In this document: positions 1 through 58,028 of the stretch, piece by piece | How positions within the stretch are numbered: position 1 is the first letter of the stretch | How the letters are laid out: every line of letters starts with the position of its first letter | IMG/VR virus record: IMGVR_UViG_3300018481_000025 | Span: 1 to 58,225 of that record | DNA length: 58,225 nt | Reading direction: 5' to 3' (one strand) | DNA from: a virus | Lineage: Duplodnaviria > Caudoviricetes | Notes under the pieces: model-generated | What the model was told of the DNA's origin: nothing | What the model saw: only the letters and a program-made list of their open reading frames with translations | Database searches by the model: none | Made by a program: the position numbers and the translations under genes

Positions 1-383
1 ACCAGTTTGCCCTCGTCGATGATGAACTCAGCGACCAGAGTGGTGTTCTCGATGTCAAACAGGTCGAGTGAGACAGCCGGGGGATTGAGGCGGAACGTCA
101 GCCGTCCGCTCTCTACTCCCGGCTTCCAATAAGGTCGAACCGTGTATTCTACGGCGAACGTCGCATGTTCCCCCATGAAGATCTGCTTCTCACGATAGAT
201 CGTGTCTTTGTCAGCTTCAATAAGTTTCCATTCAACGCCCGTTGTCCCGATATCGTTCATGCCAAACTCGGCCCGCACATGGGTGTAGCCCAGAAGGTCT
301 GGGTCACGCATCCACAGGCCGACGAACGCATCGAGGATTTGCTTGAGGTCTTGCCTTATATCCATATAAGCGCCGCCCAACAC
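1..383 (-). CDS. Hypothetical protein, runs off the window edge
   Basis: Hand-translated open frame (..AYMDIRQDLKQILDAFVGLW..IDEGKL); GGAGG at 394-398; start GTG 383 or ATG 365. Confidence 0.6.
   Translation of the reverse strand, partial: MLGGAYMDIRQDLKQILDAFVGLWMRDPDLLGYTHVRAEFGMNDIGTTGVEWKLIEADKDTIYREKQIFMGEHATFAVEYTVRPYWKPGVESGRLTFRLNPPAVSLDLFDIENTTLVAEFIIDEGKL
355..370 (-). promoter_or_regulatory. CTTATA-N4-TATAAG palindrome copy 1 (in 5' end of gene)
   Basis: cttata tcca tataag. Confidence 0.8.
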
Positions 384-390
384 ATCACAT
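379..390 (-). promoter_or_regulatory. ATGTGATGTGTT motif copy 1
   Basis: aacacatcacat on + strand; recurs at 3945, 6110, 7096. Confidence 0.55.
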
Positions 391-630
391 CATCCTCCGG
401 TGGGCCACTTCAGCAGTTTCGCTCGCCCACTTCCGCAGCTCGAAGTGCATCTCTGATGCCAGAGCCGCCTTGCTCTCGTCGCCTTCCTCGGTCGACAATA
501 GTACGGCGAACACCGCCGCTGCCCCGGTGAAGAAGACGTGCTTGAACTCGGCACGATCCTGTGCCGAGACATGCTCCTCCATCACCATGCTCTCGTACTC
601 CTTCCACATCGCCTCGATATGGTTCTTCAT
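385..630 (-). CDS. Small phage hypothetical protein
   Basis: 81-aa ORF with GGAGG RBS, coupled to neighbours. Confidence 0.75.
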   Translation of the reverse strand: MKNHIEAMWKEYESMVMEEHVSAQDRAEFKHVFFTGAAAVFAVLLSTEEGDESKAALASEMHFELRKWASETAEVAHRRMM

Positions 631-893
631 GACCCCTCCTTTGTTCCGTCGATTACCTCGATACCAGCCGAGGCGAATTGCTTCTGGATCAGCAGGAAGT
701 CAGCCTGCTGATCGCTCTTAGGTTTATAGTCACCGCGCTCGATCAGTATCAGTTGGTTGCCGTGCTTCCTGAAGGTGAGGAGGGTGCGCGGCACCCCCCA
801 CACCCCCTCGTCTGCCAACTGAGCGAAAAGATTTCGGCACCACTCGCGATGAGGATCGGGGCTGCGATGTGCGCCGTCGATCTGCTTGCTCAT
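627..893 (-). CDS. Hypothetical protein
   Basis: MSKQIDG.. start after GAGG; overlapping start/stop with neighbours. Confidence 0.7.
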   Translation of the reverse strand: MSKQIDGAHRSPDPHREWCRNLFAQLADEGVWGVPRTLLTFRKHGNQLILIERGDYKPKSDQQADFLLIQKQFASAGIEVIDGTKEGS

Positions 894-1075
894 GATTTCC
901 TCTTGAGTAAGTAGACATTGATGTTCTCTGCGGCACGCGGCTCGAACGCATTGCGGCAGAAGGGGCAAACATACATCGCCCCCTTTTCATCGAGGTTTGG
1001 CACGCCAGAGATCCACACCCCGCACGTCCTATGAGGACATAGGACCGCCTCGATCGTCTCGACTGCTGGCAGCAT
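890..1075 (-). CDS. Small Zn-ribbon-like protein
   Basis: CPHRTC and CPFC cysteine pairs. Confidence 0.55.
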   Translation of the reverse strand: MLPAVETIEAVLCPHRTCGVWISGVPNLDEKGAMYVCPFCRNAFEPRAAENINVYLLKRKS

Positions 1076-1204
1076 TTGAAGTCCCCGCATCTTTGCGCCC
1101 CACAATAGGTTTGTAGTCGTCAGCCCAGAACCCTGCGTCATTGCAGGGTGGTATGAAGATTGGCTTCGGCTTCTCACGCAGGAACAACCGCCGTAGAAAC
1201 TTCA

Positions 1205-1423
1205 TCATCGCCTTACCCCCATAGGTTCTCTGAACACTGGCATCGTATCCATCCACCAGCTCAGATGAAGTATCGACATGGCAAACGCTGTCATGAAGGT
1301 GATGATGCCCCACGCAAGCAGCTTGCGTGGGACACGATATTTTGGTCTGACCAAGCACGGCGCGGTCAGCCACATCGACAGCATGTCGATGGCCAGTAGC
1401 ATTGCCTCGGGTGTGAACGGCAT
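1205..1423 (-). CDS. Small membrane protein
   Basis: MPFTPEAM..; hydrophobic segment LLAWGIITFMTAFAMSILHL. Confidence 0.55.
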   Translation of the reverse strand: MPFTPEAMLLAIDMLSMWLTAPCLVRPKYRVPRKLLAWGIITFMTAFAMSILHLSWWMDTMPVFREPMGVRR

Positions 1424-1424
1424 A

Positions 1425-1649
1425 TCACCCCCCTGTCTTGAGCCAGCGCCCGTCCTCCTGTTTGACGTAGCGCTGCCCTCTACCCACACCCAGTCCCGTG
1501 CCGTACCTGCCGAAGCAGGTTTGGCATAAGTTCCCCCAGCCACCGAACGTGGTGGCCGCGTCGTACATCATCTTGTCGAACGGCTTGTTGCAAACGTCGC
1601 ACTCTTTCGGATCGCCTGCCCAGTATCTCAGCTTGAGCGTCTTGCTCAT
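1425..1649 (-). CDS. Small CxxC-containing protein
   Basis: CDVC and CQTC motifs. Confidence 0.7.
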   Translation of the reverse strand: MSKTLKLRYWAGDPKECDVCNKPFDKMMYDAATTFGGWGNLCQTCFGRYGTGLGVGRGQRYVKQEDGRWLKTGG

Positions 1650-1840
1650 CGACGTACACCCATTCCCATGCGTGAGTTGCGGTCGGCACGTGAGGCGATC
1701 GAGTTGATGCGGTCGATCTCACGCTGCATGGCGATCACCTGATCGGCCAGCATGATCACGGTCTGCTTCAATAGTTCGTTGGTCGGGCCCTCCTTGCGGA
1801 TGGCGTTGACCAGTGCCTGCAATCGTCGATAGTCCATCAT
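1646..1840 (-). CDS. Hypothetical protein
   Basis: 64 aa; AAGGAG RBS overlaps palindrome copy 2. Confidence 0.65.
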   Translation of the reverse strand: MMDYRRLQALVNAIRKEGPTNELLKQTVIMLADQVIAMQREIDRINSIASRADRNSRMGMGVRR

Positions 1841-2043
1841 CTTGGTCTCCTTATAGGCATATAAGTCATGCGGTTCTTCCTCCGCGTCTTGATCGGGTTG
1901 TCACGGTAGTACGGGTCGCCTTGGGCACGCTCTTGGCGACGTTCGTAAGACGAGAGCTTGTCATGCGCCCGCATGTAAGCCCGCAGCTGGTAGATAAACT
2001 CCAAGAACTCATCGTCATCGAGATCATATGGAAATCTCGCCAT
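1837..2043 (-). CDS. Hypothetical protein
   Basis: 68 aa, GGAGG RBS; C-terminal TYMPIR encoded by the palindrome. Confidence 0.65.
   Translation of the reverse strand: MARFPYDLDDDEFLEFIYQLRAYMRAHDKLSSYERRQERAQGDPYYRDNPIKTRRKNRMTYMPIRRPR
1850..1865 (-). promoter_or_regulatory. Palindrome copy 2 (intragenic, overlaps next RBS)
   Basis: cttata ggca tataag. Confidence 0.8.
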
Positions 2044-2530: not shown

Positions 2531-2884
2531 TCATCGGTGCCGCCTCGCCAGTTCGAGACGCGCCGGTATCACCTCCATGCTGTTGCAGTAGTTGCAGCAT
2601 CTCCCCTCGTTCACCGGCCGGGCATTGTTGCCCATGCCGTCCATACGCGTGTGGCATATCGAGCAGCTCAGCTGCTCCTGTGCCAGTCGTGGGTGGATCG
2701 GTCCGTTCAGCTTGTAGACGTCGCGCAGCCAGTTGATGCGGTTGACGATGGACTGCATCAGGCTGTCGAGCACCTGCACCTGCTGCGGACCCGTCAGCCT
2801 GTGCATGGCGTTGTGGATTGGTTGCAGGCATTCCTCCGTAATCCTGTCGAGGCGCTTCTTGCTGATCGGTCGTGGTGCTTTCAT
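2531..2884 (-). CDS. Hypothetical protein with C-terminal Zn-finger-like motif
   Basis: CSIC..GNNARPVNEGRCCNYCN. Confidence 0.7.
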   Translation of the reverse strand: MKAPRPISKKRLDRITEECLQPIHNAMHRLTGPQQVQVLDSLMQSIVNRINWLRDVYKLNGPIHPRLAQEQLSCSICHTRMDGMGNNARPVNEGRCCNYCNSMEVIPARLELARRHR

Positions 2885-3294
2885 TTGCTGTCCTTCCATG
2901 CGTAACCATATGCCTGCATGTTGACGATGCAGTTGAATTCAGGGTCGAGCCTGATGAACTTCTTGCGGATGCGCTTGATGCACGAGCGCACGTTGGTATG
3001 AAACCCGTCGTCGCCATAGCCAGCGCGGAAGCCGGGTATGCCTTTCAGTTTGTCGTAGATGGTGCGGTACTCGACATACTCGCCGCGTGCCGCCACCAAG
3101 GTGGTGATGATGCGAAGCTCGCCCATGGTCGCGCCGATGCTGACGTTGCGCCAGTAGACGGCACTCTCGGTGATGATGAGGTCGGTTTTCCTCTGCCACC
3201 GGGGGCAGCCCGAGCATGGGTTGGTGACGGGATGCGGTGGGTCGACCAGCGCAGGCAAAGCTTCGGCCATCGTTCCATTTACGTTGCTGCTCAT
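2881..3294 (-). CDS. Stand-alone OmpR/PhoB-type winged-helix DNA-binding protein (ChvI-like effector domain, no receiver)
   Basis: ELRIITTLV..YRTIYD..TNVRSCIKRIRKKF..DPEFNCIVNMQAYGYAW resembles Trans_reg_C. Confidence 0.8.
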   Translation of the reverse strand: MSSNVNGTMAEALPALVDPPHPVTNPCSGCPRWQRKTDLIITESAVYWRNVSIGATMGELRIITTLVAARGEYVEYRTIYDKLKGIPGFRAGYGDDGFHTNVRSCIKRIRKKFIRLDPEFNCIVNMQAYGYAWKDSK

Positions 3295-3335
3295 GTGGTG
3301 TTCTCCCTGCTTGAAGCTCTGAATGTACATCATGC

Positions 3336-3369
3336 AAAACCGGGGCCTTATATGAATATAAGGCCCCGG
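3336..3369 (-). terminator. Intrinsic terminator built around palindrome copy 3 (core 3347-3362)
   Basis: CCGGGGC-CTTATA-TTCA-TATAAG-GCCCCGG followed by TTTT on the minus strand. Confidence 0.7.
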
Positions 3370-3975: not shown

Positions 3976-4005
3976 GCCCGGCCTTATATGGATATAAGGC
4001 CGGGC
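3976..4005. promoter_or_regulatory. 30-bp hairpin containing palindrome copy 4 (core 3983-3998)
   Basis: gcccggc-cttata-tgga-tataag-gccgggc just after a stop codon; no U-tract. Confidence 0.75.
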
Positions 4006-5085: not shown

Positions 5086-5403
5086 TCAGGCATCGTTGGT
5101 CAGTTTGAGTTGGTTGGTCTGCCAGTCGTCCAGCATGTCGAGCCATCCCGAGGTTTCGTTGATGACGCGATGCAGCTGGATGGTTGTCTCAGCGTTGATG
5201 ATGCGCACCATGTACTCCTCCCACTTGTTGCGGGCTTTGGTACTGGCACCAATGCTGAACTCGTAGGTGGCATCGGTGAGATAGCTCACTGCTGCCATCT
5301 TGTTGGGTAAGAGGTCCCGACGCACATGCTTATGCGTCAGGCCCATCTTCGCCACCTCCTTCTGGAGGTTGCGAAGCCGTATGATTGTCAGGCTCGTTGT
5401 CAT
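5086..5403 (-). CDS. Hypothetical protein
   Basis: GGAGGAG RBS before MTTSL.. Confidence 0.6.
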   Translation of the reverse strand: MTTSLTIIRLRNLQKEVAKMGLTHKHVRRDLLPNKMAAVSYLTDATYEFSIGASTKARNKWEEYMVRIINAETTIQLHRVINETSGWLDMLDDWQTNQLKLTNDA

Positions 5404-5632
5404 CTCTGCATTGCTCCTCCATTTGCTCAATCATCATGAACATTGCCTCGGCACTGCGCTCGTCACCGATGCAGGCAGCGCACAAGTTGAATGGCGAGGT
5501 GCGCAATCTTGTACGCACCTCGGTCGGCAGGTCGTCATAGCAGTGCATGGTCTCGCGTCCTCTGACGGAGGCGTAGCACAGCAGCTGCCGCTTGATGCGG
5601 TTGAAGCGCCTTATAGTCATATAAGGTTTCAT
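5330..5632 (-). CDS. Hypothetical protein
   Basis: 100 aa; N-terminal PYMTIR encoded by palindrome copy 5. Confidence 0.55.
   Translation of the reverse strand: MKPYMTIRRFNRIKRQLLCYASVRGRETMHCYDDLPTEVRTRLRTSPFNLCAACIGDERSAEAMFMMIEQMEEQCRDDNEPDNHTASQPPEGGGEDGPDA
5610..5625 (-). promoter_or_regulatory. Palindrome copy 5 (intragenic)
   Basis: cttata gtca tataag. Confidence 0.8.
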
Positions 5633-5641: not shown

Positions 5642-6082
5642 TCATCCTTCGGTCCGCTTGAACAGCATGTCGACCGCACTGGCCGACATGACTTGCTTGG
5701 TCTCACTCTGGGCATGGGCGAATGCACAAAGACATGCCCATGATCTTGCGTGAGCGATCGTCCTCTTGTTCTTGAGCACGATCAGACGCGCCAGCGCCGT
5801 CTGCAGCGCCCTTACGCCATCTATGTCGGTGCGTCTGCCCAACACGATGAACGCCCGCAGGTCTTTCGATATGTCGGGGTTGTCGTTGCCCGATCCTTCT
5901 TTCATTGCCTGCATCACGGCGGGGGCATCGTCTGGCTCCAATAGTTGGTCGTCGTCCTGTGCACGGGCGCATAGGAACGTAGCCAGTACAAAGCGACCGA
6001 TTGGTCCGCGCCCATGCTCGCGGCCCATCTGGCGCACGAATGCGAGAACGCTCTCCAGTTCAAACTCTCGGCTGGATACCAT
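5642..6082 (-). CDS. Hypothetical protein
   Basis: MVSSREFE.. after GGGGAG RBS. Confidence 0.7.
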   Translation of the reverse strand: MVSSREFELESVLAFVRQMGREHGRGPIGRFVLATFLCARAQDDDQLLEPDDAPAVMQAMKEGSGNDNPDISKDLRAFIVLGRRTDIDGVRALQTALARLIVLKNKRTIAHARSWACLCAFAHAQSETKQVMSASAVDMLFKRTEG

Positions 6083-6109
6083 TGGCGAACTCCCCTGCCT
6101 GCGCCGCAA

Positions 6110-6461: not shown

Positions 6462-6701
6462 TTAGTCGAAAGGCCACTTTGGTATGCGGCTGTTCCACCG
6501 CACTGCGTATGGCTTGCCGTAGCCACGTTTTATCAGATGCTTTGCTGCCCAATAGGCAGCACCGTCATGGGTTTCCTCCGTCGCTATTCGATGGATAGTC
6601 ATTTGTGAAACCTGAAACTTTTTCGCGATACTTTTCTTCGTCTCTCCTTTCCAGATACGAATGACAATCTCGATGGCATCGTCGTCACTGAGCTTTCCCA
6701 T
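6462..6701 (-). CDS. Small helix-turn-helix DNA-binding protein
   Basis: KLSDDDAIEI..GETKKSIAKKFQVSQMTIHRI; AGGAGG RBS. Confidence 0.75.
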   Translation of the reverse strand: MGKLSDDDAIEIVIRIWKGETKKSIAKKFQVSQMTIHRIATEETHDGAAYWAAKHLIKRGYGKPYAVRWNSRIPKWPFD

Positions 6702-6794
6702 TGTACCTCCTTGCTGGCTTGGCTATTACGGGCGCTAATGCGGGGAAGCCCGCCGCATTTGATGGAACTAATGTCAAGTCGATAAGTACTTGAT

Positions 6795-6810
6795 CTTATA
6801 GGCATATAAG
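6795..6810 (-). promoter_or_regulatory. Palindrome copy 6
   Basis: cttata ggca tataag. Confidence 0.8.
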
Positions 6811-7146: not shown

Positions 7147-7162
7147 CTTATAGGCATATAAG
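7147..7162 (-). promoter_or_regulatory. Palindrome copy 7
   Basis: gccttata ggca tataaggc. Confidence 0.8.
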
Positions 7163-7180: not shown

Positions 7181-7258
7181 AAAATGCCCGCGCGAGCGGG
7201 CGCGGGCAGAAAGTTTTGATTGAACGCACGAAAATCCCCCGCGCTTGCGCGCGGGGGA
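7181..7258 (-). terminator. Two tandem intrinsic terminators
   Basis: GC hairpins at 7185-7208 and 7235-7258 (GCAA loop), each followed by TTTTCGTGCGT on the minus strand. Confidence 0.8.
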
Positions 7259-7271: not shown

Positions 7272-8147
7272 CTACGCCGTGCCGACGCCGTTGCTGCCAT
7301 CGGCAGCGGGGGCCAGCAGCGCGGCGAACTTGGCGTTCGCCTCGACGTTGCGCTGGGCAGCGGTCTTACCCTTGCCCTTGCCCTTCGTGCCCTTCTTGGG
7401 CTTGGCCGCATCTTCGACGGCCTTGCGGGCCTTGAAGTAGGCGGCAGCGGCGACGCCGTAGGCTTCGACCGCCCTCTTTGCCTCGATCGCCAACTTGGCG
7501 AGCGCGGGGTCATCTTTGCACACGGCGAGGAAATCCTTTGCCGTGCCGATCTTGCCGATTGCGTTGACGAGAACAACGCTCGCGGCCTTCAGTTCCGATG
7601 ACGTGGTGCTGTTGCGCCGCGCCGTCGCCTTCTTCTTCGCGTAGTCGGCCAGCTCCTTATCGGTCGGAGCGGTCTTGTCGAACTCATCCATGAGCGCATT
7701 TGCGAGCGCACCCATGTTGGGCATCGACATCATGTAGCTCTCGCCGGGCTGCTTCTGCTCGGCGATCCATCGCGCGACCCGCTTACGGTCGTCGATTTCC
7801 TTCCAGTTGATGAACGCGCCGAGGTTGCCGAGCTTAACCAATGCGTTGCCGTATTGATCTTCGCCCTTCAACTTGCCGTTCTCATCCGTGCCGGGACGCT
7901 TGCGGTCGCCGACGTAGAACACCGGCACGAACTCCTTTTCCCACACGGGGCGGGCGTCGAACTTCTCCTCCCCGCGCACGGTCGCCGCGATGCCCGCGCC
8001 GACCATCTTGATGGCCAGCGTCCGCAGGATGCTGCCATCCGACGGCTTGCTCGCCAGCTCGCGAACGTCCGCGCGGAATTGTTCCGCCGACATTGCGATC
8101 ACGTTGTCCAGTTCGTCGCCTTCCACCTTGACTACCTTCGCGGCCAT
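7272..8147 (-). CDS. 291-aa protein with Lys/Ala-rich C-terminal tail, monocistronic
   Basis: AGGAGG RBS, long clean ORF, KPKKGTKGKGKGK tail. Confidence 0.85.
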   Translation of the reverse strand: MAAKVVKVEGDELDNVIAMSAEQFRADVRELASKPSDGSILRTLAIKMVGAGIAATVRGEEKFDARPVWEKEFVPVFYVGDRKRPGTDENGKLKGEDQYGNALVKLGNLGAFINWKEIDDRKRVARWIAEQKQPGESYMMSMPNMGALANALMDEFDKTAPTDKELADYAKKKATARRNSTTSSELKAASVVLVNAIGKIGTAKDFLAVCKDDPALAKLAIEAKRAVEAYGVAAAAYFKARKAVEDAAKPKKGTKGKGKGKTAAQRNVEANAKFAALLAPAADGSNGVGTA

Positions 8148-8167: not shown

Positions 8168-8183
8168 CTTATATCCATATAAG
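8168..8183 (-). promoter_or_regulatory. Palindrome copy 8 (just upstream of RBS)
   Basis: ggcttata tcca tataagcc. Confidence 0.8.
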
Positions 8184-8257
8184 CCGGGTTAAAGGGCGGC
8201 TTGTTCCCGCCCCATACTCTATGTGAAACGAAACAGGCCGCAGGGCTTGGCTCGTTC

Positions 8258-8273
8258 CTTATAGGCATATAAG
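8258..8273 (-). promoter_or_regulatory. Palindrome copy 9
   Basis: ccttata ggca tataagg. Confidence 0.8.
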
Positions 8274-8349
8274 GCCGCGAACCCACGGGGGAGATGGACA
8301 GACCGGCCGCCCCCATGCCCGCGCTTTTAGCATCGAAAAAATCTAGGAG

Positions 8350-18895: not shown

Positions 18896-18940
18896 ACGAC
18901 CCGCCTTATATGCCTATAAGGCGGGTCGTTCTTTCCTCTT
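18896..18940 (+). terminator. Post-capsid terminator built around palindrome copy 10 (core 18905-18920)
   Basis: acgacccgc-cttata-tgcc-tataag-gcgggtcgt followed by tctttcctctt. Confidence 0.75.
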
Positions 18941-34057: not shown

Positions 34058-37000
34058 TGCGCAACAGGTTTGGCACGGCGCAGTATCTTTCGGGTGAGGT
34101 CTATCGCGACCCCAACCAGCCAGAAGAACCCAACAAGGATAGCCGCACGTGGACCGAGACGGCGATCGACACGGCGTCCGATTTCCTCGGTGCGGCTGCT
34201 ACCATCCCGCGTACGATCACGCATGCGATGCGTGCGGGCACTGCCTACCTGCCGGAGAAGACAGCGATACCGGGAACGCCGGGGGAAATCAGCGAGGTGC
34301 CCATCCCCGGTCAGGACGTGTTCGGAACGCCCGCTTCAGGTGTGATGCGCGATATCGACGTCGGCATGGGCGAGGTCGAGAAGAATATCAGAGACTGGCA
34401 GTCACCCTACAGTAAGGAGCTTGCTAAAGCATCTGTGCTGCCGGGCTACGGTGAGCGTAGCTTCTGGGATACGCCCTTCGCTTCAACTGGAAAGTTCCTC
34501 GCTGGCAGCGCCCCCTATGCAATACTTGCTCTAGCAACAGGCGGCGGCAGCCTCGTTGCGCAAGGCACAGGCGTAGCTGCTCAGGGCGTGTTTGGCCAAG
34601 CTGAAGGCTGGAACCAGCTGCAGGATTACACCGACCAGACACCGAGGGAGAAGCTCCTCAAAGACAGCCCGGTGTTTGAGGAGTACCTCCGGCAATACCC
34701 CGGCGATGAGAAGGCAGCCCGGCAGGCGCTGTACAACGATACGGTTGACCTCAAAGCGCAGTTCGCCAGCGGTATTGCTAATGCTGCCGAGTTCGGTGCG
34801 CTGCTCGACGGTCTTAACAAGTCGAAGCGCAGCCTCGCCCTCGGCATGGCGCGCTTCATTCCCGTCGTCGGTAAGTTCCTTCCTGCACGCGTTGGCAGAG
34901 CTGTCGGTGGTACGCTCGAAGGTGGGGTGTCAGGTTTTGCTGAAGGTGCAACCGACGCCTACATTTCGGAGCTGGCCAAGGTCCGCACCGGCGAGCAGGA
35001 AGCGATCAACGTCAGCGAGATCCCGAAGGGTGGCTGGCAGGGTGCTGGGTTCGGTCCGGGTGTGGGTGCATGGCATGCGATCGCACCGAGCCCGGTCAAG
35101 GAGTGGGACAAGGGCATCCTTCAGACGCTGGGCAGTCAGATCAACGGCGGCACGACACAGCAGCAACCGGCACCGGGACAAGGGACGCCGCCTGCTGGTG
35201 GGCCGGGTGCACCGCCACCGGGCGGACCCGCAGGAGCGCCCGGCGCTATGCCGCCGGGCGGACCGGGTGCTGCACCACCGGGCGGACCGACGCCGGGTGG
35301 TGGGCCGACACGTCGGCGCGGTCCGGTCACTGACGTCGAGGATACGTCAGGCCAGCCAACGGCACCGCTGGTAGTACCCGGCCGTCAAATTCGGCCTGAA
35401 GAACTTGGGGTCGAAACGGGACAACAGGCAGCGGCACCACTCGATCGCGCACCACCGATGCCGGACGACTTCGTGCCGGAGGGTGATCCTGCCTATCAGT
35501 TCACGACCGGCAAGGGGTCGCGGTACTGGCACTTCGACGACAACACGACGGTGCGCAACAAGGCTCCTCGGCCCGAGCATCCCGGCGACCAAGGGTTCAA
35601 GGCCAAGTCAGAGACGACGTTCTACGCCAACGAGGACCATCTCAACCAGATGGGCTCGCTGATGCAGGCGACGTCCACCTTCGGCAAGGTGATGGCGCAG
35701 CACCCGAGGACTGGCCAGTGGGGTGTGATGTACACCAGCGGTCCCAGCAAGGGTAAGTGGGAACGCCGCACGATGGGTACGGTGTCGACCGAGCCTCAGG
35801 TCGGCCTGTATCCGGTCGAGACTTGGAACCGAGGCAAGCGCTTCCACTTTGGCAATGCGATCACTGAGGTGAAGCCGCTGCGAGCGGCTGCACCGGCTGC
35901 TGCTGCGGGCGCTGCTGCCCCCGCCACCCCTACAGCGCCTGCGGCGGCAGCCCCTGCACAGCCTTATATGGATATAAGCTCGCAGGAAGTTGGTCCGCCG
36001 ACCCAGCCCGCTGGACCGGCAACGTGGGCAGCAGGTGACTTCCAGTACGACGTTGAGGTTACGCCTGCTCCACCGGAGCAGGGCCCTGACGGTCGCATGT
36101 ACCAGCAGGTGCTGCATGAGGGTCAGGCTCAATGGGTGCCTGCCGATGAGCTGACAGCACGCGCCGACAGATCACGCTCGGAGAGCCCGGAGGTCGAGAA
36201 GGCCCGGCGTGCCTTCGAGCAGCACGAAGGGCGGGCGTCGGCGCAGCAGATGCGTCAGGCGGCGTGGCAGCAGGAAAGCGACCGGCTCTACAACGCTTGG
36301 AAAGAAGCGGAGATGGAGGAGCGGCGCGAAGGCGCTGGCCTGCCCCGCAAGTCGCCGGTCGCGCCGAGGAGCGTGTCGGCCAAGGCGCTGACCAAGGATC
36401 AGATCCTCAAGATCCGTGCCGGTATGGCGGTGCTTGACCCTGACACCCGCCGTGCTTTCGCAACTAACCTGCACCGCAGGCAGAGCGCGACGCAAGACGT
36501 CGACCGCCACAGCATCCCCGAGTGGATGAGCGCAGAGGGCGGACCGCTCACCGACAAGCAGTATGCAGCGCTCGCCAATGCGCTCGACAATAACCCGGAT
36601 CAGACGATCGAGCTGATCGGGCAGCGGCCGTTCGAGACGACCCGTGAAGGTGTGCAGGAGCACTACACGCAGCGCGTCGCCGAGAGGAAAGAGGCAGAGG
36701 CAGAGGAAGCACAGCAAGCAGAGGAGGCTACGCAGCGCGCGAGAGGTGAGCGGCGGCCCAGTGCCGACGTCACCATACCAGACCTTAAGCGCCCGCCCCG
36801 GCGAGTGACGGCCGAACTCAATACCGAGATGCAGGCGCTTGAGGCGTCGCTGCGCGGCTATCAGGTCAACCGCAAGCAACAGACGCCGCAGCGCTGGCGC
36901 GCTCTACGCCGCCGGGCCGAGCTGATTGACCGTGAACTGCAAGCCCAAGGTTTCCAACCACGCTTCGTCAACTGGCTGGGCCCGGCACCTGCCGAGACGG

Positions 37001-44812: not shown

Positions 44813-44828
44813 CTTATATGCATATAAG
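44813..44828 (+). promoter_or_regulatory. Palindrome copy 12 (overlaps RBS AAGGAG)
   Basis: cttata tgca tataag gag cgcgcc ATG. Confidence 0.8.
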
Positions 44829-48625: not shown

Positions 48626-48751
48626 TTATCTATTTGACATCCTTATATCCATATAAGGTTCACGGATCTGGGCCATCAGCGGGCTCTCGCCCTCATCGCT
48701 CTCGGTGATCTCAGCATGCACCTTGCGCAGCCGTTCCACAATGTCGGTCAT
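48626..48751 (-). CDS. Short MTDIVERLRK protein, possibly truncated
   Basis: 41 aa, hand-translated; runs through palindrome copy 13. Confidence 0.4.
   Translation of the reverse strand: MTDIVERLRKVHAEITESDEGESPLMAQIREPYMDIRMSNR
48642..48657 (-). promoter_or_regulatory. Palindrome copy 13
   Basis: ccttata tcca tataagg. Confidence 0.8.
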
Positions 48752-53865: not shown

Positions 53866-55386
53866 CTAATCCCACGATGCGTCTTCAAGCAAGTGGAGAA
53901 AGCTATCTTGTTGGAGCAGCCGATCGGTCAGCAGTTTGTAGACCTGCCGCTCGATCGGCGTGCTCGATAGGTGAATGAAAAGCTGTTTGTGTTTTTGCCC
54001 TACGCGCCTGATGCGCGCGTTGCATTGGTCGTACGTCTCGGCCGAGAGGGGAGGGCCGAACCATACAACGGTGTCAGCAGCCGTCAGTGTGAGACCGTGG
54101 CTGATGCACTTCGGGTAGACCACGAGCGGTGAGGGATCGCTGGTGTTCTGGAATGAGTTGAAGATGATGTTGCGTGCCTTGGGTGACGTACCCCCATGGA
54201 TTAGATGCGGGGTGTATTCTTTTGCACATAGGTAATCGTAGACACCCTGCAGGGCATGCAGATAATTGACGAACACAATGACCTTGCCCGTGGCGGCATC
54301 TATGATGTCGGCCAGCGCCTGCAGTCGTGCCTCGCCACCGAGATCGTGCTCTACCCTGTTCTTGCCGTAGACCCAGCCTGCCGACACCTGCAGCAGCTTG
54401 TTCATCAGCACACCGGCATTCGCCGCCGTCACTTCCCCGGCAGCGATCTTGGCCAAGGCGTACTTGCGCAGCATGTCGTAGGTCTTCTGCTGGTCAGGGC
54501 TCAGCGCCGTCTGCATCGGTGGCGGCACCACCGCCTCGGGCAGCTCGGTGATATCGTCGAGGGTGTAGCGCACCGAGGGCTGGAAGTAGTTGAACGCACG
54601 CTCGATCGCACCGGGCTTGTTCACCCACTTCCACTGCGTCAGGCGATACATCAGTTCATCACGCAGGTGGGTGAAGTGCTTGGGCACCCGTGCTGGAGTG
54701 ATCAGCTTGATCTGATTGTAGATGTCGGTGACGTAGTTGGGCATCGGTGCCCCGGTCATGCCCCACACCGCTGGCTTGTTGGCGACAACCTTGGCGGCGA
54801 TCTTGGTACGCAGGGTGTTGTTGCGGTAGACCGCAAGCTCGTCGAGGATGATGACGTCTATGTCGGCGCGGTCGACAATCTCCTTGGCGACGATGCGCAG
54901 GCCATCATGATTGATGATGTAGACGTCAACATCATCGGCCAATAGTTCGCGCCGCTTCGCAGCGGTGCCGTGCAGCACGCGCGACGTCAGGTGCGGAGCA
55001 GCCTTCAATATTTCAGCCTGCCATGTGAACGACATGGTGGAGAGCGGGCAGACTACCAGCAGCTTGTTCACCAGCCCGAGCTTCTTCAGGTAGTCGAACG
55101 ACCACAGCCCGCATCGTGTCTTGCCGGTGCCCATGCTGTTGAGTACGTACGATCTTGGGTTCTCCGTCATGCTCTCGCAGGTCAGCACCTGAATGTCGAA
55201 CGGCTTGCCGCCATTCCAGTCGTAGGTGGTACGGATTGAGGGCGGTACGTTATAGCCCATCGCGCGCAGCGGGATGGTGGTGCGCGGCGTGTGCTCCAGC
55301 ACCAGCTTGCCGTCGACCGGCAACACCTCAGGGAAGATCGCTTTCAGGCCCTCCGTAGCATCGACGGTCAAGGATCCAACGTTCAT
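53866..55386 (-). CDS. SNF2-family (SF2) helicase
   Basis: MGTGKT, ILDE, MTGAP, HGLTLTAA, QCNARIRRVGQ. Confidence 0.9.
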   Translation of the reverse strand: MNVGSLTVDATEGLKAIFPEVLPVDGKLVLEHTPRTTIPLRAMGYNVPPSIRTTYDWNGGKPFDIQVLTCESMTENPRSYVLNSMGTGKTRCGLWSFDYLKKLGLVNKLLVVCPLSTMSFTWQAEILKAAPHLTSRVLHGTAAKRRELLADDVDVYIINHDGLRIVAKEIVDRADIDVIILDELAVYRNNTLRTKIAAKVVANKPAVWGMTGAPMPNYVTDIYNQIKLITPARVPKHFTHLRDELMYRLTQWKWVNKPGAIERAFNYFQPSVRYTLDDITELPEAVVPPPMQTALSPDQQKTYDMLRKYALAKIAAGEVTAANAGVLMNKLLQVSAGWVYGKNRVEHDLGGEARLQALADIIDAATGKVIVFVNYLHALQGVYDYLCAKEYTPHLIHGGTSPKARNIIFNSFQNTSDPSPLVVYPKCISHGLTLTAADTVVWFGPPLSAETYDQCNARIRRVGQKHKQLFIHLSSTPIERQVYKLLTDRLLQQDSFLHLLEDASWD

Positions 55387-55696: not shown

Positions 55697-55755
55697 TAGA
55701 TCGGCCCCGTTGAAAAATTGGCGGTTGTCGGAATACAGTTTTATCTACTTAACGC

Positions 55756-55771
55756 CTTATAGGCATATAAG
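55756..55771 (-). promoter_or_regulatory. Palindrome copy 14
   Basis: gccttata ggca tataaggc directly after a stop codon. Confidence 0.8.
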
Positions 55772-55772: not shown

Positions 55773-55964
55773 CTATTGCTCGCCCCGCATTGTCTTTCGA
55801 CCATGTAGCAATGCGTCATGCACGATCCAACGAATGATCTCAGCAGCTTTCGCAGGGTCGGGGTGTTCCTCGCCCATATAATTTTCGACGGCTTCCAGCG
55901 CTGCCATAAGACGCACTACCGTCTTGAGCAACCCGCTTTCCGTCCAGTACGAACCGCTATCCAT
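55773..55964 (-). CDS. Hypothetical protein
   Basis: 63-aa ORF in operon. Confidence 0.55.
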   Translation of the reverse strand: MDSGSYWTESGLLKTVVRLMAALEAVENYMGEEHPDPAKAAEIIRWIVHDALLHGRKTMRGEQ

Positions 55965-56685
55965 TTAGTCCTTTCCCGTGGTACTCGCACGCCGTCACAC
56001 CACAGTGCCGCTTGCACAAGCCGGACGGACGGGGCGGAAAGTGGTCATTGACGACTGCACGATTGAGCACCCCGGCAATCTCGTACATCTGCGGGGCGAA
56101 TTCGCGCAGATCCTCCCGCAGCATGTCGAACGCGGTCGAGGTGTCCTCGTTCAGGTAGACGTATTTGCTGGTGACGTTCCGTACCTGCGGGAAGTGCAGG
56201 AAGATCAGCAAGGCGGTGAGGCGCAGCTGGAAGTTGGGCGGTAGCAGGGCGTATCGGGCATCGGGCTCCTTGCCGGTTTTCCAGTCGATGCTGAGCGCGT
56301 GCTCGCCGTTCACCACCAGCATGTCGGCCTGTGATCGCAGCCAAACCTTCTTCTTGCGATCGAAGTACTCGCAAGGCTCCAGCCCGAACGTGCAGGCCAT
56401 CTTGTATTCGGCGAATACCCGGTCGCCGGGCTGCCGCTCCGGCACCCACTTGGCGTAGTGCTTGGGGATCGCCGTGCCGTTCTCGATGAAGTCGGCCATC
56501 GCCTTATGCACGCGGAACCCTTCCCGCATGTTCTCATTCTCGGGTTCCTTGATGATCTTGGCGATCTCGTAGGCGTGGAACTTACGCGGGCAATTGTAGA
56601 ACTTGTCAGCCTGCGAGAACGACCAGTGCCGTCGTTCGACGATCGGCCGACCGGTGCTATCCGTGCGCGTTAGAGTGTTGTCCAT
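55957..56685 (-). CDS. PD-(D/E)XK (Cas4-like) exonuclease
   Basis: WSFS..CPRK; ADML..IDWKTGK; QLRL; PSGLCKRHCGVTACEY. Confidence 0.88.
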   Translation of the reverse strand: MDNTLTRTDSTGRPIVERRHWSFSQADKFYNCPRKFHAYEIAKIIKEPENENMREGFRVHKAMADFIENGTAIPKHYAKWVPERQPGDRVFAEYKMACTFGLEPCEYFDRKKKVWLRSQADMLVVNGEHALSIDWKTGKEPDARYALLPPNFQLRLTALLIFLHFPQVRNVTSKYVYLNEDTSTAFDMLREDLREFAPQMYEIAGVLNRAVVNDHFPPRPSGLCKRHCGVTACEYHGKGLNG

Positions 56686-56881
56686 TGGATACCTGCCGCA
56701 TCGTGTGTTCGGCGTTCTTCTCGGCGTGGAAACTGGTGAAGTCGGAAACCGAGATCAGGATACGCCCGCTCGGTCTATGTCGCCATCTGTAGTGGCTCTT
56801 TGTTGTCTCGCCGACAAACTCAAAATCGTACCTCGCAGCCATCTCCTTCAGCGTTCTCAGTACTTTGGATTTGCGGGCCAT
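56657..56881 (-). CDS. HicA-like small protein
   Basis: KSHYRWRHRPSGRILISVSD..AEKN pattern. Confidence 0.5.
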   Translation of the reverse strand: MARKSKVLRTLKEMAARYDFEFVGETTKSHYRWRHRPSGRILISVSDFTSFHAEKNAEHTMRQVSNGQHSNAHG

Positions 56882-56927
56882 GGTTCCTCCTATCTACTAG
56901 ATATGGTATCAAATGGGAACTTTCAAG

Positions 56928-57212
56928 TCACGCCTTATGCGTGAGCTGATCCTGCCGAACAGGCTCGACAATCTGCCAGTCATCGGACAGCAGGTCGGCA
57001 TGACTGCTGCAGTAGGGCATCAGGCCGTCATACTCGGTCTTGATCCACAACGACGGCTCAACGCGATAGCCGCCGCCATACTTGTGTGGCACCTGCATCC
57101 CAGCGTCGGGCACCATGAAGAGCCAGATCTTGTCAGGCCAGCTATTGCGCCTGACATTCTTGCCCAGCTTCAGATTGAACAAGGCGTCTTCAAAACTAAT
57201 TGGCTTAGGCAT
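56928..57212 (-). CDS. tad2: Tad2-like (DUF2829) anti-Thoeris sponge protein
   Basis: FEDAL..LKLGKNVRRNSW..IKT..PY.SSHADLLSDDWQIV. Confidence 0.8.
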   Translation of the reverse strand: MPKPISFEDALFNLKLGKNVRRNSWPDKIWLFMVPDAGMQVPHKYGGGYRVEPSLWIKTEYDGLMPYCSSHADLLSDDWQIVEPVRQDQLTHKA

Positions 57213-57369
57213 GAATAGCTCCGAGATTACCCGTCAGCCACAGGATCAGCAGGATGATGAGGACGAGGCCGACGACGCCCCCCAACCCGTTGTAGCCGTA
57301 CCTGCCGTAGCCCCAGTAGCCGCCACCGAACAGCACAAGCAAAAGCAAGATGATAATGATCAGGGTCAT
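57205..57369 (-). CDS. DUF3309-like small two-TM membrane protein
   Basis: Hand-translated MTLIIIILLLLVLFGGGYWGYGRYGYNGLGGVVGLVLIILLILWLTGNL..; GGAGG RBS. Confidence 0.75.
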   Translation of the reverse strand: MTLIIIILLLLVLFGGGYWGYGRYGYNGLGGVVGLVLIILLILWLTGNLGAIHA

Positions 57370-57378
57370 TGCAACCTC

Positions 57379-57816
57379 CTAGAGGGCGAAGCACTCATTA
57401 CGCGGTTCACCTTCACAGAGCCCAACATGGACCCAGTGTGCACCTCCACCCGTCTCGTCGATCAGCTGATCAATTTCGAGATCGGCAAGGTGAGGCGTGA
57501 CGGCAATGCAGATGTCAGTCGGCGTGCCGTAGTCGGGAATGACGATATCGGCCGCCAACCCATACCGATGGGCGCTGTCAGCGACCCCGCCCACCTCCTC
57601 GTTTAGTGCTTCGCAGCGGTAGCCGGAGTTCACGATCACGGGGTAGCTGCCACACAGTACGCGGATTTCCTCCAACACATCACATAGGCGCTTGAGATTG
57701 GCCTCGATCTCGGGCGGCGGCGTGTTGTCGATGCCGCAGGCATTGGCGGTATCGGAGTGGCACATCTCGGCCAAGGTGAAATGCTCAGTGAGATACCCCT
57801 CGGGCAGCTCGCTCAT
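57379..57816 (-). CDS. Peptidase M15 family endolysin
   Basis: LTEHFTLAEM..SGYRC..LN..VGG..SAH..GLAADI..WVHVG. Confidence 0.88.
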   Translation of the reverse strand: MSELPEGYLTEHFTLAEMCHSDTANACGIDNTPPPEIEANLKRLCDVLEEIRVLCGSYPVIVNSGYRCEALNEEVGGVADSAHRYGLAADIVIPDYGTPTDICIAVTPHLADLEIDQLIDETGGGAHWVHVGLCEGEPRNECFAL

Positions 57817-57982
57817 GGGCTTGCTCCTCTTTGATATGGTCAAGGGCACGCTGGGCTTCGTCGAGGACATACATGGCCTCGGCGAACATCTTGCCCTTCT
57901 GCTTCTCACGCGCAAAATTGACCGCCGCCTGAGCCATGCGGGCGTGTTTTTCGAGGGCGCGGATCAGAAGGCCGTAGTTCAT
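57785..57982 (-). CDS. Small helical hypothetical protein
   Basis: 65-aa ORF. Confidence 0.5.
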   Translation of the reverse strand: MNYGLLIRALEKHARMAQAAVNFAREKQKGKMFAEAMYVLDEAQRALDHIKEEQAHERAARGVSH

Positions 57983-57991
57983 GGCGGAACG

Positions 57992-58028
57992 AAAAAATGG
58001 GCCGCCTTATATGAATATAAGGCGGCCC
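57992..58028 (-). terminator. Terminator built around palindrome copy 15 (core 58006-58021)
   Basis: GGGCCGC-CTTATA-TTCA-TATAAG-GCGGCCC then ATTTTTT on the minus strand. Confidence 0.75.

What the first reader, a model, noticed from the sequence alone, without database searches (positions are those of the whole stretch)
355..58021. Genome-wide network of 15 oriented palindromes CTTATA-N4-TATAAG (stoperator-like system)
Seen: exact 6+6 arms start at 355, 1850, 3347, 3983, 5610, 6795, 7147, 8168, 8258, 18905, 35963, 44813, 48642, 55756 and 58006 in an otherwise GC-rich genome. Nine copies lie in the first 8.3 kb. Read in the local direction of transcription, the spacers are TGGA, TGCC, TTCA, TCCA, TGAC, TGCC, TGCC, TGGA, TGCC, TGCC, TGGA, TGCA, TGGA, TGCC, TTCA, so 12 of 15 read CTTATATG. 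All seven TGCC/TGAC copies follow transcription. Known: mycobacteriophage L5/Bxb1 stoperators are multi-copy, transcription-oriented repressor sites. Inference: one phage protein binds these sites as a roadblock, operator or genome organiser, or they act as RNA/ssDNA hairpins. Candidate binders are the HTH at 6462-6701, the HTH at 9929-10231, the 291-aa protein at 7272-8147 and the wHTH at 2881-3294. No integrase is visible here, so this may not be lysogeny control.
Basis: partly seen in the sequence, partly recalled or inferred. Interest (0 to 1): 0.88.

Follow-up and report, generated by a model that had tools for sequence, protein, structure and literature searches.

The report
Phage's private 16-bp palindrome sites
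An uncultured soil-type phage carries 15 identical copies of one short mirror-symmetric DNA word, mostly between its early genes, and each related phage has a different word in the same places, so it is most likely the docking site of a phage protein that has not been identified.

Summary
There are 15 exact CTTATA-N4-TATAAG sites at the stated coordinates, none expected by chance and no degenerate copies. The window is a whole, roughly 96% complete podovirus-like genome.

Six related phage records lack this word, but each has 6-13 copies of its own 15-16 bp palindrome. In 15 relatives a phage-specific palindrome follows the same conserved box beside the first early gene, and 11 have a second copy just before that gene's ribosome site.

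The 16-mer is self-contained, with no flanking motif. As an RNA hairpin it is almost unstable, at -1.2 to -1.4 kcal/mol. Four copies form the tip of long GC-clamped stems, and three of those have T tails.

My best reading (about 0.5) is that these are binding sites of an unidentified, fast-evolving two-fold symmetric phage protein that gates early transcription. This works like stoperators or the Cluster O repeats, but it is not a stoperator-family member: the sites are symmetric, and I found no repressor or integrase. I could not name the binder, and the conserved HTH-like protein at 8914-9384 is rejected.

This scan has already reported the same kind of private palindrome in other phage lineages.

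The parts
355..370 (-). Palindrome copy, sense spacer TGGA. It lies 14 nt after the stop of ORF 385-630 and over the start region of the next ORF.
1850..1865 (-). Palindrome copy (TGCC). A TGA stop lies directly before it, and TATAAGGAG runs into the ribosome site of gene 1646-1840, whose ATG is 9 nt after the site.
3347..3362 (-). Palindrome copy (TTCA) at the tip of a 14-bp GC-clamped stem (-26.1 kcal/mol) followed by TTTT. The ATG of gene 2881-3333 is 13 nt after the site.
3983..3998 (-). Palindrome copy (TCCA) at the tip of a GC-clamped stem (-28.6 kcal/mol) with no T run.
5610..5625 (-). Palindrome copy (TGAC) over codons 3-8 of ORF 5330-5632, just after gene 5642-6109.
6795..6810 (-). 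Palindrome copy (TGCC) at the downstream edge of the low-GC non-coding region, upstream of the HTH gene 6462-6701.
7147..7162 (-). Palindrome copy (TGCC) just after the two tandem terminators that close the first early gene. The local fold is -16.2 kcal/mol.
8168..8183 (-). Control-region copy 2 (TGGA), 20 nt upstream of the ATG of the first early gene and 10 nt before its GGAGG.
8258..8273 (-). Control-region copy 1 (TGCC), 9 nt downstream of the family-conserved box.
8283..8300 (-). Family-conserved box TGTCCATCTCCCCCGTGG that precedes copy 1 in 15 related phages. Its function is unknown.
8210..8228 (-). Single-copy conserved central element between the two control-region copies. It may be part of the early promoter.
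7272..8147 (-). First early gene ('F', 291 aa). It is fast-evolving and all-helical, and is bracketed by palindromes. It is a candidate binder, but unproven.
7185..7258 (-). Two tandem terminator-like hairpins that close the first early gene.
18905..18920 (+). Palindrome copy (TGCC) at the tip of the hairpin after the major capsid gene (-26.7 kcal/mol), with a T-rich tail.
35963..35978 (+). Palindrome copy (TGGA) inside the 3526-aa ORF, read as Y-M-D-I-S.
44813..44828 (+). Palindrome copy (TGCA, fully symmetric) directly after a TAG stop, with TATAAGGAG before the next ATG.
48642..48657 (-). Palindrome copy (TGGA) at the convergence point, 30 bp from the bidirectional terminator at 48584-48612.
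55756..55771 (-). Palindrome copy (TGCC) in the 260-nt gap between the nuclease gene and the gene before the helicase. G001 has its own palindrome between the same two genes.
58006..58021 (-). Palindrome copy (TTCA) at the tip of a 13-bp stem followed by ATTTTTT. The terminator scan flagged it.
6462..6701 (-). 79-aa HTH protein (Pfam HTH_7, E = 1.6e-5), the first gene after copy 6795. It is a candidate binder, but unproven.

Best explanation
The 15 palindromes are copies of one private recognition word. They are most likely bound as double-stranded DNA by a two-fold symmetric protein that the phage itself encodes and that changes specificity quickly between related phages. Two copies bracket the control region of the first early gene. 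Most of the others sit in the very short gaps between early and replication genes of the leftward transcription block. Four have been built into the tips of strong hairpins, three of them terminator-like. Inferred mechanism: the bound protein shuts or gates host RNA polymerase at the early control region and acts as a roadblock or insulator at gene junctions. One protein would then switch the whole early programme, and closely related phages would not cross-regulate. Shown here: the sites, their enrichment and placement, their replacement by other palindromes in relatives, the lack of any flanking motif, and the weakness of the bare RNA hairpin. Inferred: that a protein binds, that it binds DNA rather than RNA, and that the effect is repression or roadblock. 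The binder is not identified.
For: (1) 15 exact copies against 0 expected, with no degenerate copies. This fits strict sequence-specific recognition. (2) Five related records (portal 72-81% identical) have 0 copies even at 2 mismatches. Six related records carry their own word instead: G001 has 10 copies of TTGACA-N3-TGTCAA, G002 has 13 of TTAACA-N3-TGTTAA, G003 has 6 of TTGACA-N3-TGTCAA, G004 has 13 of CGAACT-N4-AGTTCG, and G006 has 12 of TTGACA-N3-TGTCAA. Shuffles of G001-G004 gave a mean of 0-0.005 copies; G006 was not shuffled, and its control (the pattern read backwards) found 0. (3) In all 15 distinct relatives a phage-specific palindrome follows the same conserved box. 11 have a second copy just before the ribosome site of the first early gene, 3 have one copy only, and 1 contig ends too soon. 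Seven different word types were seen. (4) At the hairpin after the capsid gene the flanks are alignable but the tip differs. The window and G001 each carry their own word there. (5) Across the +-40 nt flanks, information content rises only in the two positions next to the word in the window and in G004. Further out only scattered single positions reach the same level, in G004 and G002. So the word is self-contained and symmetric, with no partner at a fixed distance. (6) The 16-mer alone folds at only -1.2 to -1.4 kcal/mol as RNA, so selection acts on sequence rather than on hairpin strength. (7) 12 of 15 copies lie in the leftward early/replication block (p = 1.2e-4). In G006, 10 of 12 lie in one 24-kb stretch. 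In G004, 7 of 13 sit 8-28 nt before an ATG that has a ribosome site. (8) Half-site centres lie 9-10 bp apart, about one helical turn. I read this directly from the sequences.
Against: No binder was found. No protein family that is both conserved in the relatives and recognisably DNA-binding varies with the word. The conserved HTH-like protein 8914-9384 keeps a nearly invariant helix across 12 phages with six word types. The two conserved early families, F and S, are all-helical with no match to known DNA-binding folds. Word length differs between relatives (15, 16 and 18 bp). That is unusual for orthologous dimeric binders and is easier to explain with hairpins or non-orthologous binders. Four copies sit in long hairpin stems, which suggests RNA or single-strand function. 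G004's capsid-gene terminator carries a palindrome that is not G004's own word. A sense-strand bias (11 of 14, p = 0.029) is not expected for a perfectly symmetric DNA site. There are no expression or binding data of any kind.
Confidence: 0.5

Rival explanations
1. The word acts as an RNA or single-stranded DNA hairpin recognised by a phage-encoded RNA-binding protein or nuclease. That factor could be a translational repressor sitting next to ribosome sites, an mRNA processing or stabilising factor, or a modulator of termination. The protein would supply the stability that the weak stem lacks.
For: Copies sit between a stop codon and the next ribosome site, so they would be transcribed in polycistronic mRNA. 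Four copies form the tips of -25 to -29 kcal/mol stems, three with T tails on the sense strand. There is a sense-strand bias of 11 of 14. Word length varies between relatives (15-18 bp), as stem lengths can. The capsid-gene terminator tip carries the phage's own word in the window and in G001.
Against: The bare hairpin is only -1.2 to -1.4 kcal/mol, and 10 of 15 copies have little or no clamp. The loop or centre is the most variable part, and there are no G-U or compensatory variants: the arms are simply invariant. Most G004 copies are perfectly symmetric, with no strand information. Control-region copy 1 lies beside a conserved box upstream of the likely promoter region and may not be in the early transcript (the transcription start is unknown). 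No RNA-binding or RNase domain was found in the ORFs scanned.
Confidence: 0.2
2. The word is a promoter element: a -10-like AT-rich core, TG-N-CTATAA when read with transcription. It would be used by host RNA polymerase, perhaps redirected by a phage-specific sigma-like or appropriator protein, so that each copy starts a transcript.
For: TATAAG and CTATAA resemble -10 hexamers, and TG lies on the sense strand in 11 of 14 informative copies. All the relatives' words have AT-rich centres. Copies lie shortly upstream of genes. The copy number per genome (10-15 in the complete relatives) is like that of phage-specific promoters (recalled, T7 group).
Against: There is no -35 or other partner at a fixed distance. 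At 1850 and 44813 the ribosome site overlaps the end of the word and the ATG is 9 nt away, leaving no room for a start site before it. Copy 5610 lies inside the 5' codons of its gene. Perfect palindromes would fire in both directions. No RNA polymerase was found: the 3526-aa protein has no Pfam or PDB sequence hit and none of the catalytic motifs I searched by pattern. The only sigma-like signal is a weak Sigma70_r4 hit (E = 0.0039) in the 79-aa HTH protein at 6462-6701. Type-A relatives use TTGACA, a -35-like word, which is inconsistent with a common -10 role.
Confidence: 0.12
3. The copies are junction repeats that spread and are homogenised by recombination. They would be cassette boundaries in the hypervariable early region, like the repeated promoter/stem-loop cassettes of T4-type phages, or a small selfish palindromic element. 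No dedicated regulator would be involved.
For: The early region is highly mosaic: most of its ORFs have no homologue in the 5 relatives compared. Copies mark gene boundaries. Identical copies with no degenerate ones fit recent homogenisation.
Against: 16 bp is short for homologous exchange. The flanks share nothing beyond 1-2 nt, unlike longer cassette repeats. Copies at fixed functional places in many relatives, namely the two flanking the control element and the one at the capsid terminator tip, argue for a selected function. I found no transposase-like or HUH gene. One HNH homing endonuclease is present, but it is unique to this phage.
Confidence: 0.08
4. The sites are bound by a host global regulator that the phage exploits, for example a CtrA-type box in alphaproteobacterial hosts.
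For: The G002 word TTAACA-N3-TGTTAA equals TTAA-N7-TTAA, the CtrA box (consensus recalled). A paper on CtrA sites in alphaproteobacterial phages exists (PMC9437464; I saw only the search listing and the start of its abstract). The nearest cultured relatives infect Rhizobium.
Against: Seven quite different words occur in closely related phages. The window's word does not fit the CtrA box. The 14-base pattern gave only single-site loci in the GTDB genome rows listed, although that scan was row-capped.
Confidence: 0.05

Closest known systems
17-bp palindromic repeats of Cluster O mycobacteriophages (TGTTCGG-N3-CCGAACA; PMC4351075, passages read)
   Same: Both are a strict dyad with a free centre, present in many copies through a phage genome and denser towards one end. 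Both are mostly intergenic with some copies in coding DNA. In both cases there is no integrase or lysogeny, and the function is unknown.
   Different: As the figure legends I read describe them, the five Cluster O phages mapped carry the same repeat, whereas here each relative has a different word. Here two copies bracket a conserved control element and four form hairpin tips. The host group and the virion type also differ (a podovirus-like phage whose nearest cultured relatives infect Rhizobium).
Stoperators and operators of Cluster A mycobacteriophages (L5 gp71 and relatives; PMC6550527, passages read)
   Same: Both have many copies in short intergenic gaps across the genome and a lineage-specific motif that diverges with the phage. 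In both, some sites lie at the early promoter and most lie away from promoters. A roadblock is a plausible mode of action here too.
   Different: Stoperators are asymmetric 13-mers, almost all in one orientation, bound by a known immunity repressor of temperate phages. Here the sites are symmetric 16-mers with only a modest strand bias, and I found no repressor homologue, integrase or partition genes.
Conserved inverted repeats (CIRs) of Streptomyces phage phiC31, bound by its repressor (recalled: Ingham et al. 1994 and Wilson et al. 1995; not found in the library)
   Same: Both are highly conserved palindromic operators of about 17 bp, repeated in intergenic regions of the early genes.
   Different: phiC31 is temperate and its binder is known.
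KorB OB operators of IncP-1 plasmids (recalled, not checked)
   Same: One dimeric protein binds about a dozen identical palindromes dispersed over a mobile genome, at promoters and far from them.
   Different: KorB is a ParB homologue, and no ParB-like protein was found here. That system is on a plasmid, not a phage.
Intrinsic (rho-independent) terminators
   Same: Copies 3347, 18905 and 58006 have long GC-clamped stems followed by T-rich tails on the sense strand.
   Different: The other 12 copies lack this combination: 3983 has a long stem but no T tail, and the rest have no strong stem. The conserved part is the weak AT-rich tip, not the clamp.

Membership tests
Cluster A mycobacteriophage stoperator system | Asymmetric 13-bp site | tested here: not met
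   The sites are 6+6 exact inverted arms with an N4 centre. 8 of 15 extend to 7+7.
Cluster A mycobacteriophage stoperator system | Sites predominantly in one orientation relative to transcription | tested here: inconclusive
   Only the spacer can give an orientation. 11 of 14 informative copies have TG on the sense strand (p = 0.029). Two direction calls are ambiguous.
Cluster A mycobacteriophage stoperator system | Cognate immunity repressor and temperate life style (integrase or parABS) | tested here: inconclusive
   There was no integrase, ParA/B or repressor-family hit that reached a curated cut-off in about 50 window ORFs scanned against Pfam, PHROGs or both. Many small ORFs have no hit at all, so absence is not shown.
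Cluster A mycobacteriophage stoperator system | Many copies in short intergenic gaps, with a motif that diverges with lineage | tested here: met
   There are 15 copies. By my own ORF model 11 are intergenic, 3 lie on gene ends and 1 is inside a gene. Relatives carry other words.
Cluster O-type palindromic repeats | Strict dyad with a free centre, in many dispersed copies, in a phage without lysogeny genes | tested here: met
   The lysogeny point rests on the negative domain scans listed above.
Cluster O-type palindromic repeats | Same repeat shared by all members of the phage cluster | tested here: not met
   0 of 5 related records hold the window's word at up to 2 mismatches.
Intrinsic terminators | GC-rich stem followed by a T run on the sense strand | tested here: not met
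   Only 3 of 15 copies meet this (3347, 18905, 58006). 3983 has a stem but no T run, and the bare word folds at -1.2 to -1.4 kcal/mol.
N4-type hairpin promoters for a virion RNA polymerase | A virion RNA polymerase gene | tested here: inconclusive
   The 3526-aa virion-module protein has no Pfam hit, no PDB sequence hit and none of the polymerase motifs I searched by pattern. Its structure was not predicted.
N4-type hairpin promoters for a virion RNA polymerase | A few copies at the early end, with a conserved loop that gives direction | tested here: not met
   There are 15 copies spread over the genome, and the centre or loop is the most variable part.
Sigma-70-type or phage-polymerase-type promoter | Asymmetric element with partner boxes at fixed distance | tested here: not met
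   No partner motif appears at a fixed distance in the +-40 nt flanks of the copies in the window, G004 or G002. Information content rises only in the two positions next to the word, plus scattered single positions in G004 and G002.
parS/ParB or KorB/OB-type dispersed palindromes | A ParB/KorB-family protein encoded by the element | tested here: inconclusive
   No such hit in the domain scans. Unannotated ORFs remain.

The most novel reading that the evidence does not exclude
This phage family runs a re-codable private address system. A protein of a so-far unknown fold reads the phage's own palindrome. The two fast-evolving all-helical early families, F (7272-8147) and S (5642-6109 and its 250-aa relatives), are the positional candidates. 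Through the same word this protein would control the early switch, the gene junctions and the read-through of key terminators. Specificity would be re-written wholesale between sister phages, so that co-infecting relatives cannot regulate each other. Together with the similar cases this scan has found in other phage lineages, that would point to a widespread, undescribed class of phage regulators.
Probability: 0.25. Interest if true: 0.75.

Novelty: new member of a known kind. Interest (0 to 1): 0.55.

Why it matters
If a phage protein reads these sites, one short word controls most of the early programme of an uncultured phage lineage whose nearest cultured relatives infect Rhizobium. The relatives then offer a natural series of re-coded word and reader pairs. 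At least seven words were seen here in otherwise alignable control regions. That makes two questions directly testable: how phages change regulatory specificity at a dozen sites at once, and whether this isolates co-infecting relatives from each other. The orthogonal palindrome and binder pairs could also serve as parts for synthetic gene control. Limits: the binder is unknown, the phage is uncultured, and the general phenomenon is already known from Cluster O mycobacteriophages and has been seen repeatedly in this scan.

Tried and rejected
**Close annotated relatives.** A megablast of 25 kb against the phage collection found nothing. A tblastn search with the first 1000 aa of the giant protein gave one weak hit.

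**The same word elsewhere.** The exact 16-mer with the TGCC spacer occurs only as single copies in 17 IMG/VR stretches. The 14-base pattern CCTTATA-N4-TATAAGG gave only single-site loci among the rows listed for IMG/VR and for GTDB genomes.

**Virion RNA polymerase idea.** The giant protein has no Pfam hit, no PDB sequence hit, one PHROG of unknown function, and none of the polymerase motifs I searched by pattern. Its structure was not predicted, so the idea is weakened, not excluded.

**Binder search.**
- The conserved HTH-like protein 8914-9384 is rejected as the specificity factor. Its helix is nearly invariant in all 12 sequences that cover it, across six word types.
- The primase-helicase is about 40% identical to its relatives along most of its length, apart from a less conserved stretch around alignment columns 400-600. 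It has no hypervariable end.
- F: AlphaFold mean pLDDT 73.7. The best Foldseek E-value was 0.32 and the best VIA Z was 7.4, on generic helical bundles.
- S: pLDDT 83.0. The best Foldseek E-value was 0.97, and the protein atlas gave nothing above 0.80.
- F against S by profile comparison gave E = 0.011 and probability 3.8%, too weak to call them paralogues.
- F has only 1 homologue (44% identity) in the 5.8-billion-protein search.

**Central control-region element as a repeated T7-like promoter.** It is single-copy in each of 5 genomes at up to 5 mismatches, so I rejected this idea.

**Canonical TTGACA-N16-19-TATAAT-like promoters.** There are only 0-2 per genome, and they are not tied to the palindromes.

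**Relay mini-ORF idea.** The ATG inside the word opens a 7-codon ORF ending in an ATGA overlap at only 2 of the 12 copies that have an ATG. I rejected it as a general rule.

**'All intragenic copies use one frame.'** This is true for the 4 copies that touch ORFs, but only 2 frames are open, so it is not significant.

**Other checks.** Rfam and tRNA scans found nothing. Among sequencing runs there was no RNA holder listed, and only small DNA shares (0.05-0.10) that I did not lay. The literature search for phiC31 conserved inverted repeats found nothing usable, so that comparison is recalled. The supplementary figures of PMC6550527 on stoperator orientation may bear on the membership rows.

Full report
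**1. What the window is**

The 58,225-base window is a whole virus record, linear and estimated 96% complete. Family scans identify these genes:

| Coordinates | Strand | Product |
|---|---|---|
| 13401-15647 | + | portal/adaptor |
| 17877-18887 | + | major capsid protein |
| 18955-20892 | + | tail fibre |
| 26289-28247, 28460-30445 | + | internal virion proteins |
| 11409-12863 | - | large terminase |
| 49107-52067 | - | primase-helicase |
| 53866-55386 | - | helicase |
| 55957-56685 | - | PD-(D/E)XK nuclease |
| 57379-57915 | - | M15 endolysin |
| 34057-44637 | + | 3526-aa protein, no known domain |

- Small early genes and the replication genes are read leftward, at 8147-1 and 58225-48700.
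- The virion genes are read rightward from about 8385.
- The divergence point is 8148-8384 and the convergence point is about 48.6 kb.
- The nearest cultured phages are Rhizobium phages of the RHph_TM27A group, with 55% portal identity.

**2. The observation**

None is expected by chance (200 shuffles).
- Allowing 2 mismatches adds nothing.
- 15 of the genome's 17 CTTATA hexamers are in these sites, and only the N4 spacing occurs.
- Nine copies lie in the first 8.3 kb (p = 5e-5). 12 of 15 lie in the leftward block, which is 31% of the genome (p = 1.2e-4).
- By my own heuristic ORF model, 11 copies are intergenic. Three touch gene ends (355, 1850, 5610) and one lies inside the giant gene (35963).
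- Typical placement is right after a stop codon and 9-35 nt before the next start. Two clear cases are TGA-word-GAG...ATG at 1850 and TAG-word-GAG...ATG at 44813.
- The spacer bias is real but modest. 11 of 14 informative copies have TG on the sense strand (p = 0.029), and all 7 TGCC/TGAC copies follow transcription.

**3. The key new result: every relative has its own word**

- A portal search found related IMG/VR records at 72-83% identity.
- The five largest hold 0 copies of the window's word, even at 2 mismatches.
- A blind count of all 6+6 palindromes showed that each has a different over-represented one. The table below gives the exact-pattern counts against shuffles, with positions and contexts. 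G006 was searched separately, against the reversed pattern only.

| Record | Size | Private palindrome | Copies | Expected |
|---|---|---|---|---|
| G001 | 65.7 kb | TTGACA-N3-TGTCAA | 10 | 0 (shuffle mean) |
| G002 | 61.5 kb | TTAACA-N3-TGTTAA | 13 | 0 (shuffle mean) |
| G003 | 38.5 kb | TTGACA-N3-TGTCAA | 6 | 0.005 (shuffle mean) |
| G004 | 26 kb | CGAACT-N4-AGTTCG | 13 | 0.005 (shuffle mean) |
| G006 | 61.6 kb, terminal repeats, complete | TTGACA-N3-TGTCAA | 12 | not shuffled; reversed-pattern control found 0 |

- G005, a 19-kb virion-gene fragment, shows none.
- In G006, 10 of the 12 copies lie between 7.7 and 31.5 kb.
- In G004, 7 of 13 copies sit 8-28 nt before an ATG with a ribosome site.

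**4. Conserved architecture at the control region**

I aligned the conserved first gene of the late side (8914-9384) and used that alignment (A1) to fetch more relatives from IMG/VR and metagenomes. In 15 distinct phages the layout is the same:

1. A conserved box, TGTCCATCTCCCCCGTGG or a close variant.
2. After 3-16 nt (64 nt in one case), a phage-specific palindrome.
3. A single-copy conserved central element.
4. A small GC hairpin whose sequence differs between phages.
5. In 11 of the 15, a second copy of the same palindrome.
6. The ribosome site and ATG of the first early gene.

Three phages have only one copy, and one contig ends too early to tell.

The words seen are:
- CTTATA-N4-TATAAG (the window)
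- the TTGACA-N3-TGTCAA group
- the TTAACA-N3/N4-TGTTAA group
- CGAACTTTAAAGTTCG
- TTGACCTTTAAAGGTCAA
- GTGAGTTTTAAAACTCAC
- GGAGTTTCGAAACTCC

The flanks stay alignable while the word is replaced.

The hairpin after the capsid gene shows the same thing. The window and G001 carry their own word at its tip. G005 carries TTAACATTAATGTTAA there. G002 and G003 have plain GC hairpins. G004 carries a TTGAC-type palindrome that is not its own early word. The G004 case is an exception that I cannot explain.

**5. What kind of element is it?**

- *It is self-contained.* In the +-40 nt flanks, information content rises only in the two positions next to the word, in the window (15 copies) and in G004 (11 copies). 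Further out only scattered single positions reach that level, in G004 and G002 (13 copies). This argues against an asymmetric promoter with partner boxes.
- *It is weak as RNA.* The 16-mer folds at only -1.2 to -1.4 kcal/mol. Copies 3347, 3983, 18905 and 58006 sit in GC-clamped stems of -25 to -29 kcal/mol, and 7147 folds at -16.2. Sense-strand T tails follow 3347, 18905 and 58006, and the terminator scan flagged 58006. Selection therefore acts on the sequence of the arms, not on hairpin strength. Some copies have been built into real hairpins.
- *No polymerase.* I found no phage RNA polymerase.
- *Geometry.* Invariant arms with a free, AT-rich centre and half-sites about one helical turn apart form the classic shape of an operator for a dimeric protein. 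That last link is inference from general knowledge.

**6. Who binds?**

I could not tell.

- The conserved HTH-like protein 8914-9384 keeps a nearly invariant putative recognition helix in all 12 phages that cover it (six word types), so it cannot set the specificity.
- The first early gene, F (7272-8147 in the window), is present at the same position in all relatives but is extremely divergent. Pairwise identities range from 25% to 59%, many pairs are undetectable, and there is one homologue in the 5.8-billion-protein search.
- Its model is all-helical and matches no solved DNA-binding fold. A fast-evolving first-injected gene could equally be an anti-defence protein.
- The second conserved early family, S (5642-6109, truncated in the window), is also all-helical without a match.
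- Recognisable DNA-binding domains in the window are listed below.

| Coordinates | Pfam family | E-value | Against the curated cut-off |
|---|---|---|---|
| 6462-6701 | HTH_7 | 1.6e-5 | above |
| 2881-3333 | Trans_reg_C | 2e-4 | below |
| 9929-10231 | HTH_24 | 7.5e-4 | below |

- In the 5 relatives compared, the 6462-6701 protein has no detectable homologue. The other two have one only in G004.
- The differing word lengths (15, 16 and 18 bp) may mean that different phages use non-orthologous binders. This is speculation.

**7. Comparison with what is known**

- *Stoperators of Cluster A mycobacteriophages.* These are asymmetric 13-mers oriented with transcription and bound by the immunity repressor of temperate phages (PMC6550527, passages read). 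The system here may work in a similar way, but it fails the defining features of asymmetry and of a known repressor.
- *Cluster O repeats.* The closest described parallel is the 17-bp palindromic repeat of Cluster O mycobacteriophages. It is dispersed, mostly intergenic, found in phages with no lysogeny, and its function is unknown (PMC4351075, passages read).
- *Recalled only.* The conserved inverted repeats of phiC31 and the KorB operators are recalled parallels that I could not check.
- *Earlier notes of this scan.* They describe the same kind of private palindrome, different in each relative, in T5-like, T4-like, Chi-like and other phages. The phenomenon is therefore recurrent, and this is a further member in a new lineage.

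**8. Verdict**

My best estimates are:

| Reading | Estimate |
|---|---|
| DNA-level operator or roadblock | 0.5 |
| RNA/hairpin-level recognition | 0.2 |
| Promoter element | 0.12 |
| Recombination junction | 0.08 |
| Host factor | 0.05 |

Noticed in passing
G001-G004 (loci L040-L051) and MN988461 (L053/L054); window whole: Relatives carry a second, different repeat class. It is a 15-16 nt hairpin of the form TAAC-YYCC-GG-RRGTTA in G001-G004, and TTACC-N5/6-GGTAA in Rhizobium phage RHph_TM27A. It joins a TAA stop, an anti-Shine-Dalgarno arm and the Shine-Dalgarno arm directly before an ATG. Counts are 12 in G001, about 41 in G002, 19 in G003, 7 in G004 and 34 in TM27A. The window has 0. It looks like a translational-coupling or ribosome-site-masking device that this one phage has lost.
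   Followed up: partly
window 8283-8300 and 8194-8228: A box (TGTCCATCTCCCCCGTGG) and a single-copy central element are conserved in 15 related phages between the late and early genes. A small GC hairpin follows, and its arms differ between phages. Their function is unknown. They may be the early promoter and leader.
   Followed up: partly
window 6702-7271: A 570-nt non-coding stretch of low GC (0.50 against 0.61) follows the first early gene. It is bounded by two palindrome copies. Relatives have 0.5-1.1 kb gaps at the same place. G004's gap holds at least 7 GGATTAG-like short repeats and G001's holds three 42-bp tandem repeats. This is a candidate replication origin or non-coding RNA region.
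   Followed up: partly
window 8385-8867: An HNH + NUMOD4 homing endonuclease gene (Pfam E = 7e-13 and 2e-10) sits between the late promoter-like site and the conserved gene 8914-9384. It has no homologue in the 5 relatives, so it is probably a recent mobile insertion.
   Followed up: partly
window 56928-57212: A 94-aa protein matches the Thoeris anti-defence Tad2-like domain (PF11195, E = 7.9e-14, above the cut-off).
   Followed up: no
window 48600-48641 and 55715-55755: The copies at 48642 and 55756 share about 45 nt of similar upstream sequence (A-tract, then agttttatcta, then a TTGACA/TTAACG box) on the + strand. This resembles the late-promoter region of relatives and a stretch of G002 near 21366. 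It could be an antisense promoter or an origin-associated element.
   Followed up: no
window 34057-44637: A 3526-aa ORF in the virion module has no Pfam hit, no PDB sequence hit, and only a PHROG of unknown function at its C-terminus. It is about 30% identical over about 1480 aa to proteins of G001 and G002.
   Followed up: partly
window 8874-8889: The sequence TGTTTCACATGAAACG lies between the HNH gene and gene 8914-9384. It is close to the bacterial parS consensus as I recall it, and another first-reader note also flags it.
   Followed up: no
   Followed up: no
G001, locus L042:11220-11621 (-): The relative G001 encodes a protein with a superinfection-immunity domain (PF14373, E = 5.6e-15) among its early genes.
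   Followed up: no
window 7272-8147 and 5642-6109: The two conserved early families F and S may be remote paralogues. A profile-profile comparison aligned 134 columns at E = 0.011, but with a probability of only 3.8%. S is truncated in the window, at 155 aa against about 250 aa in relatives.
   Followed up: partly
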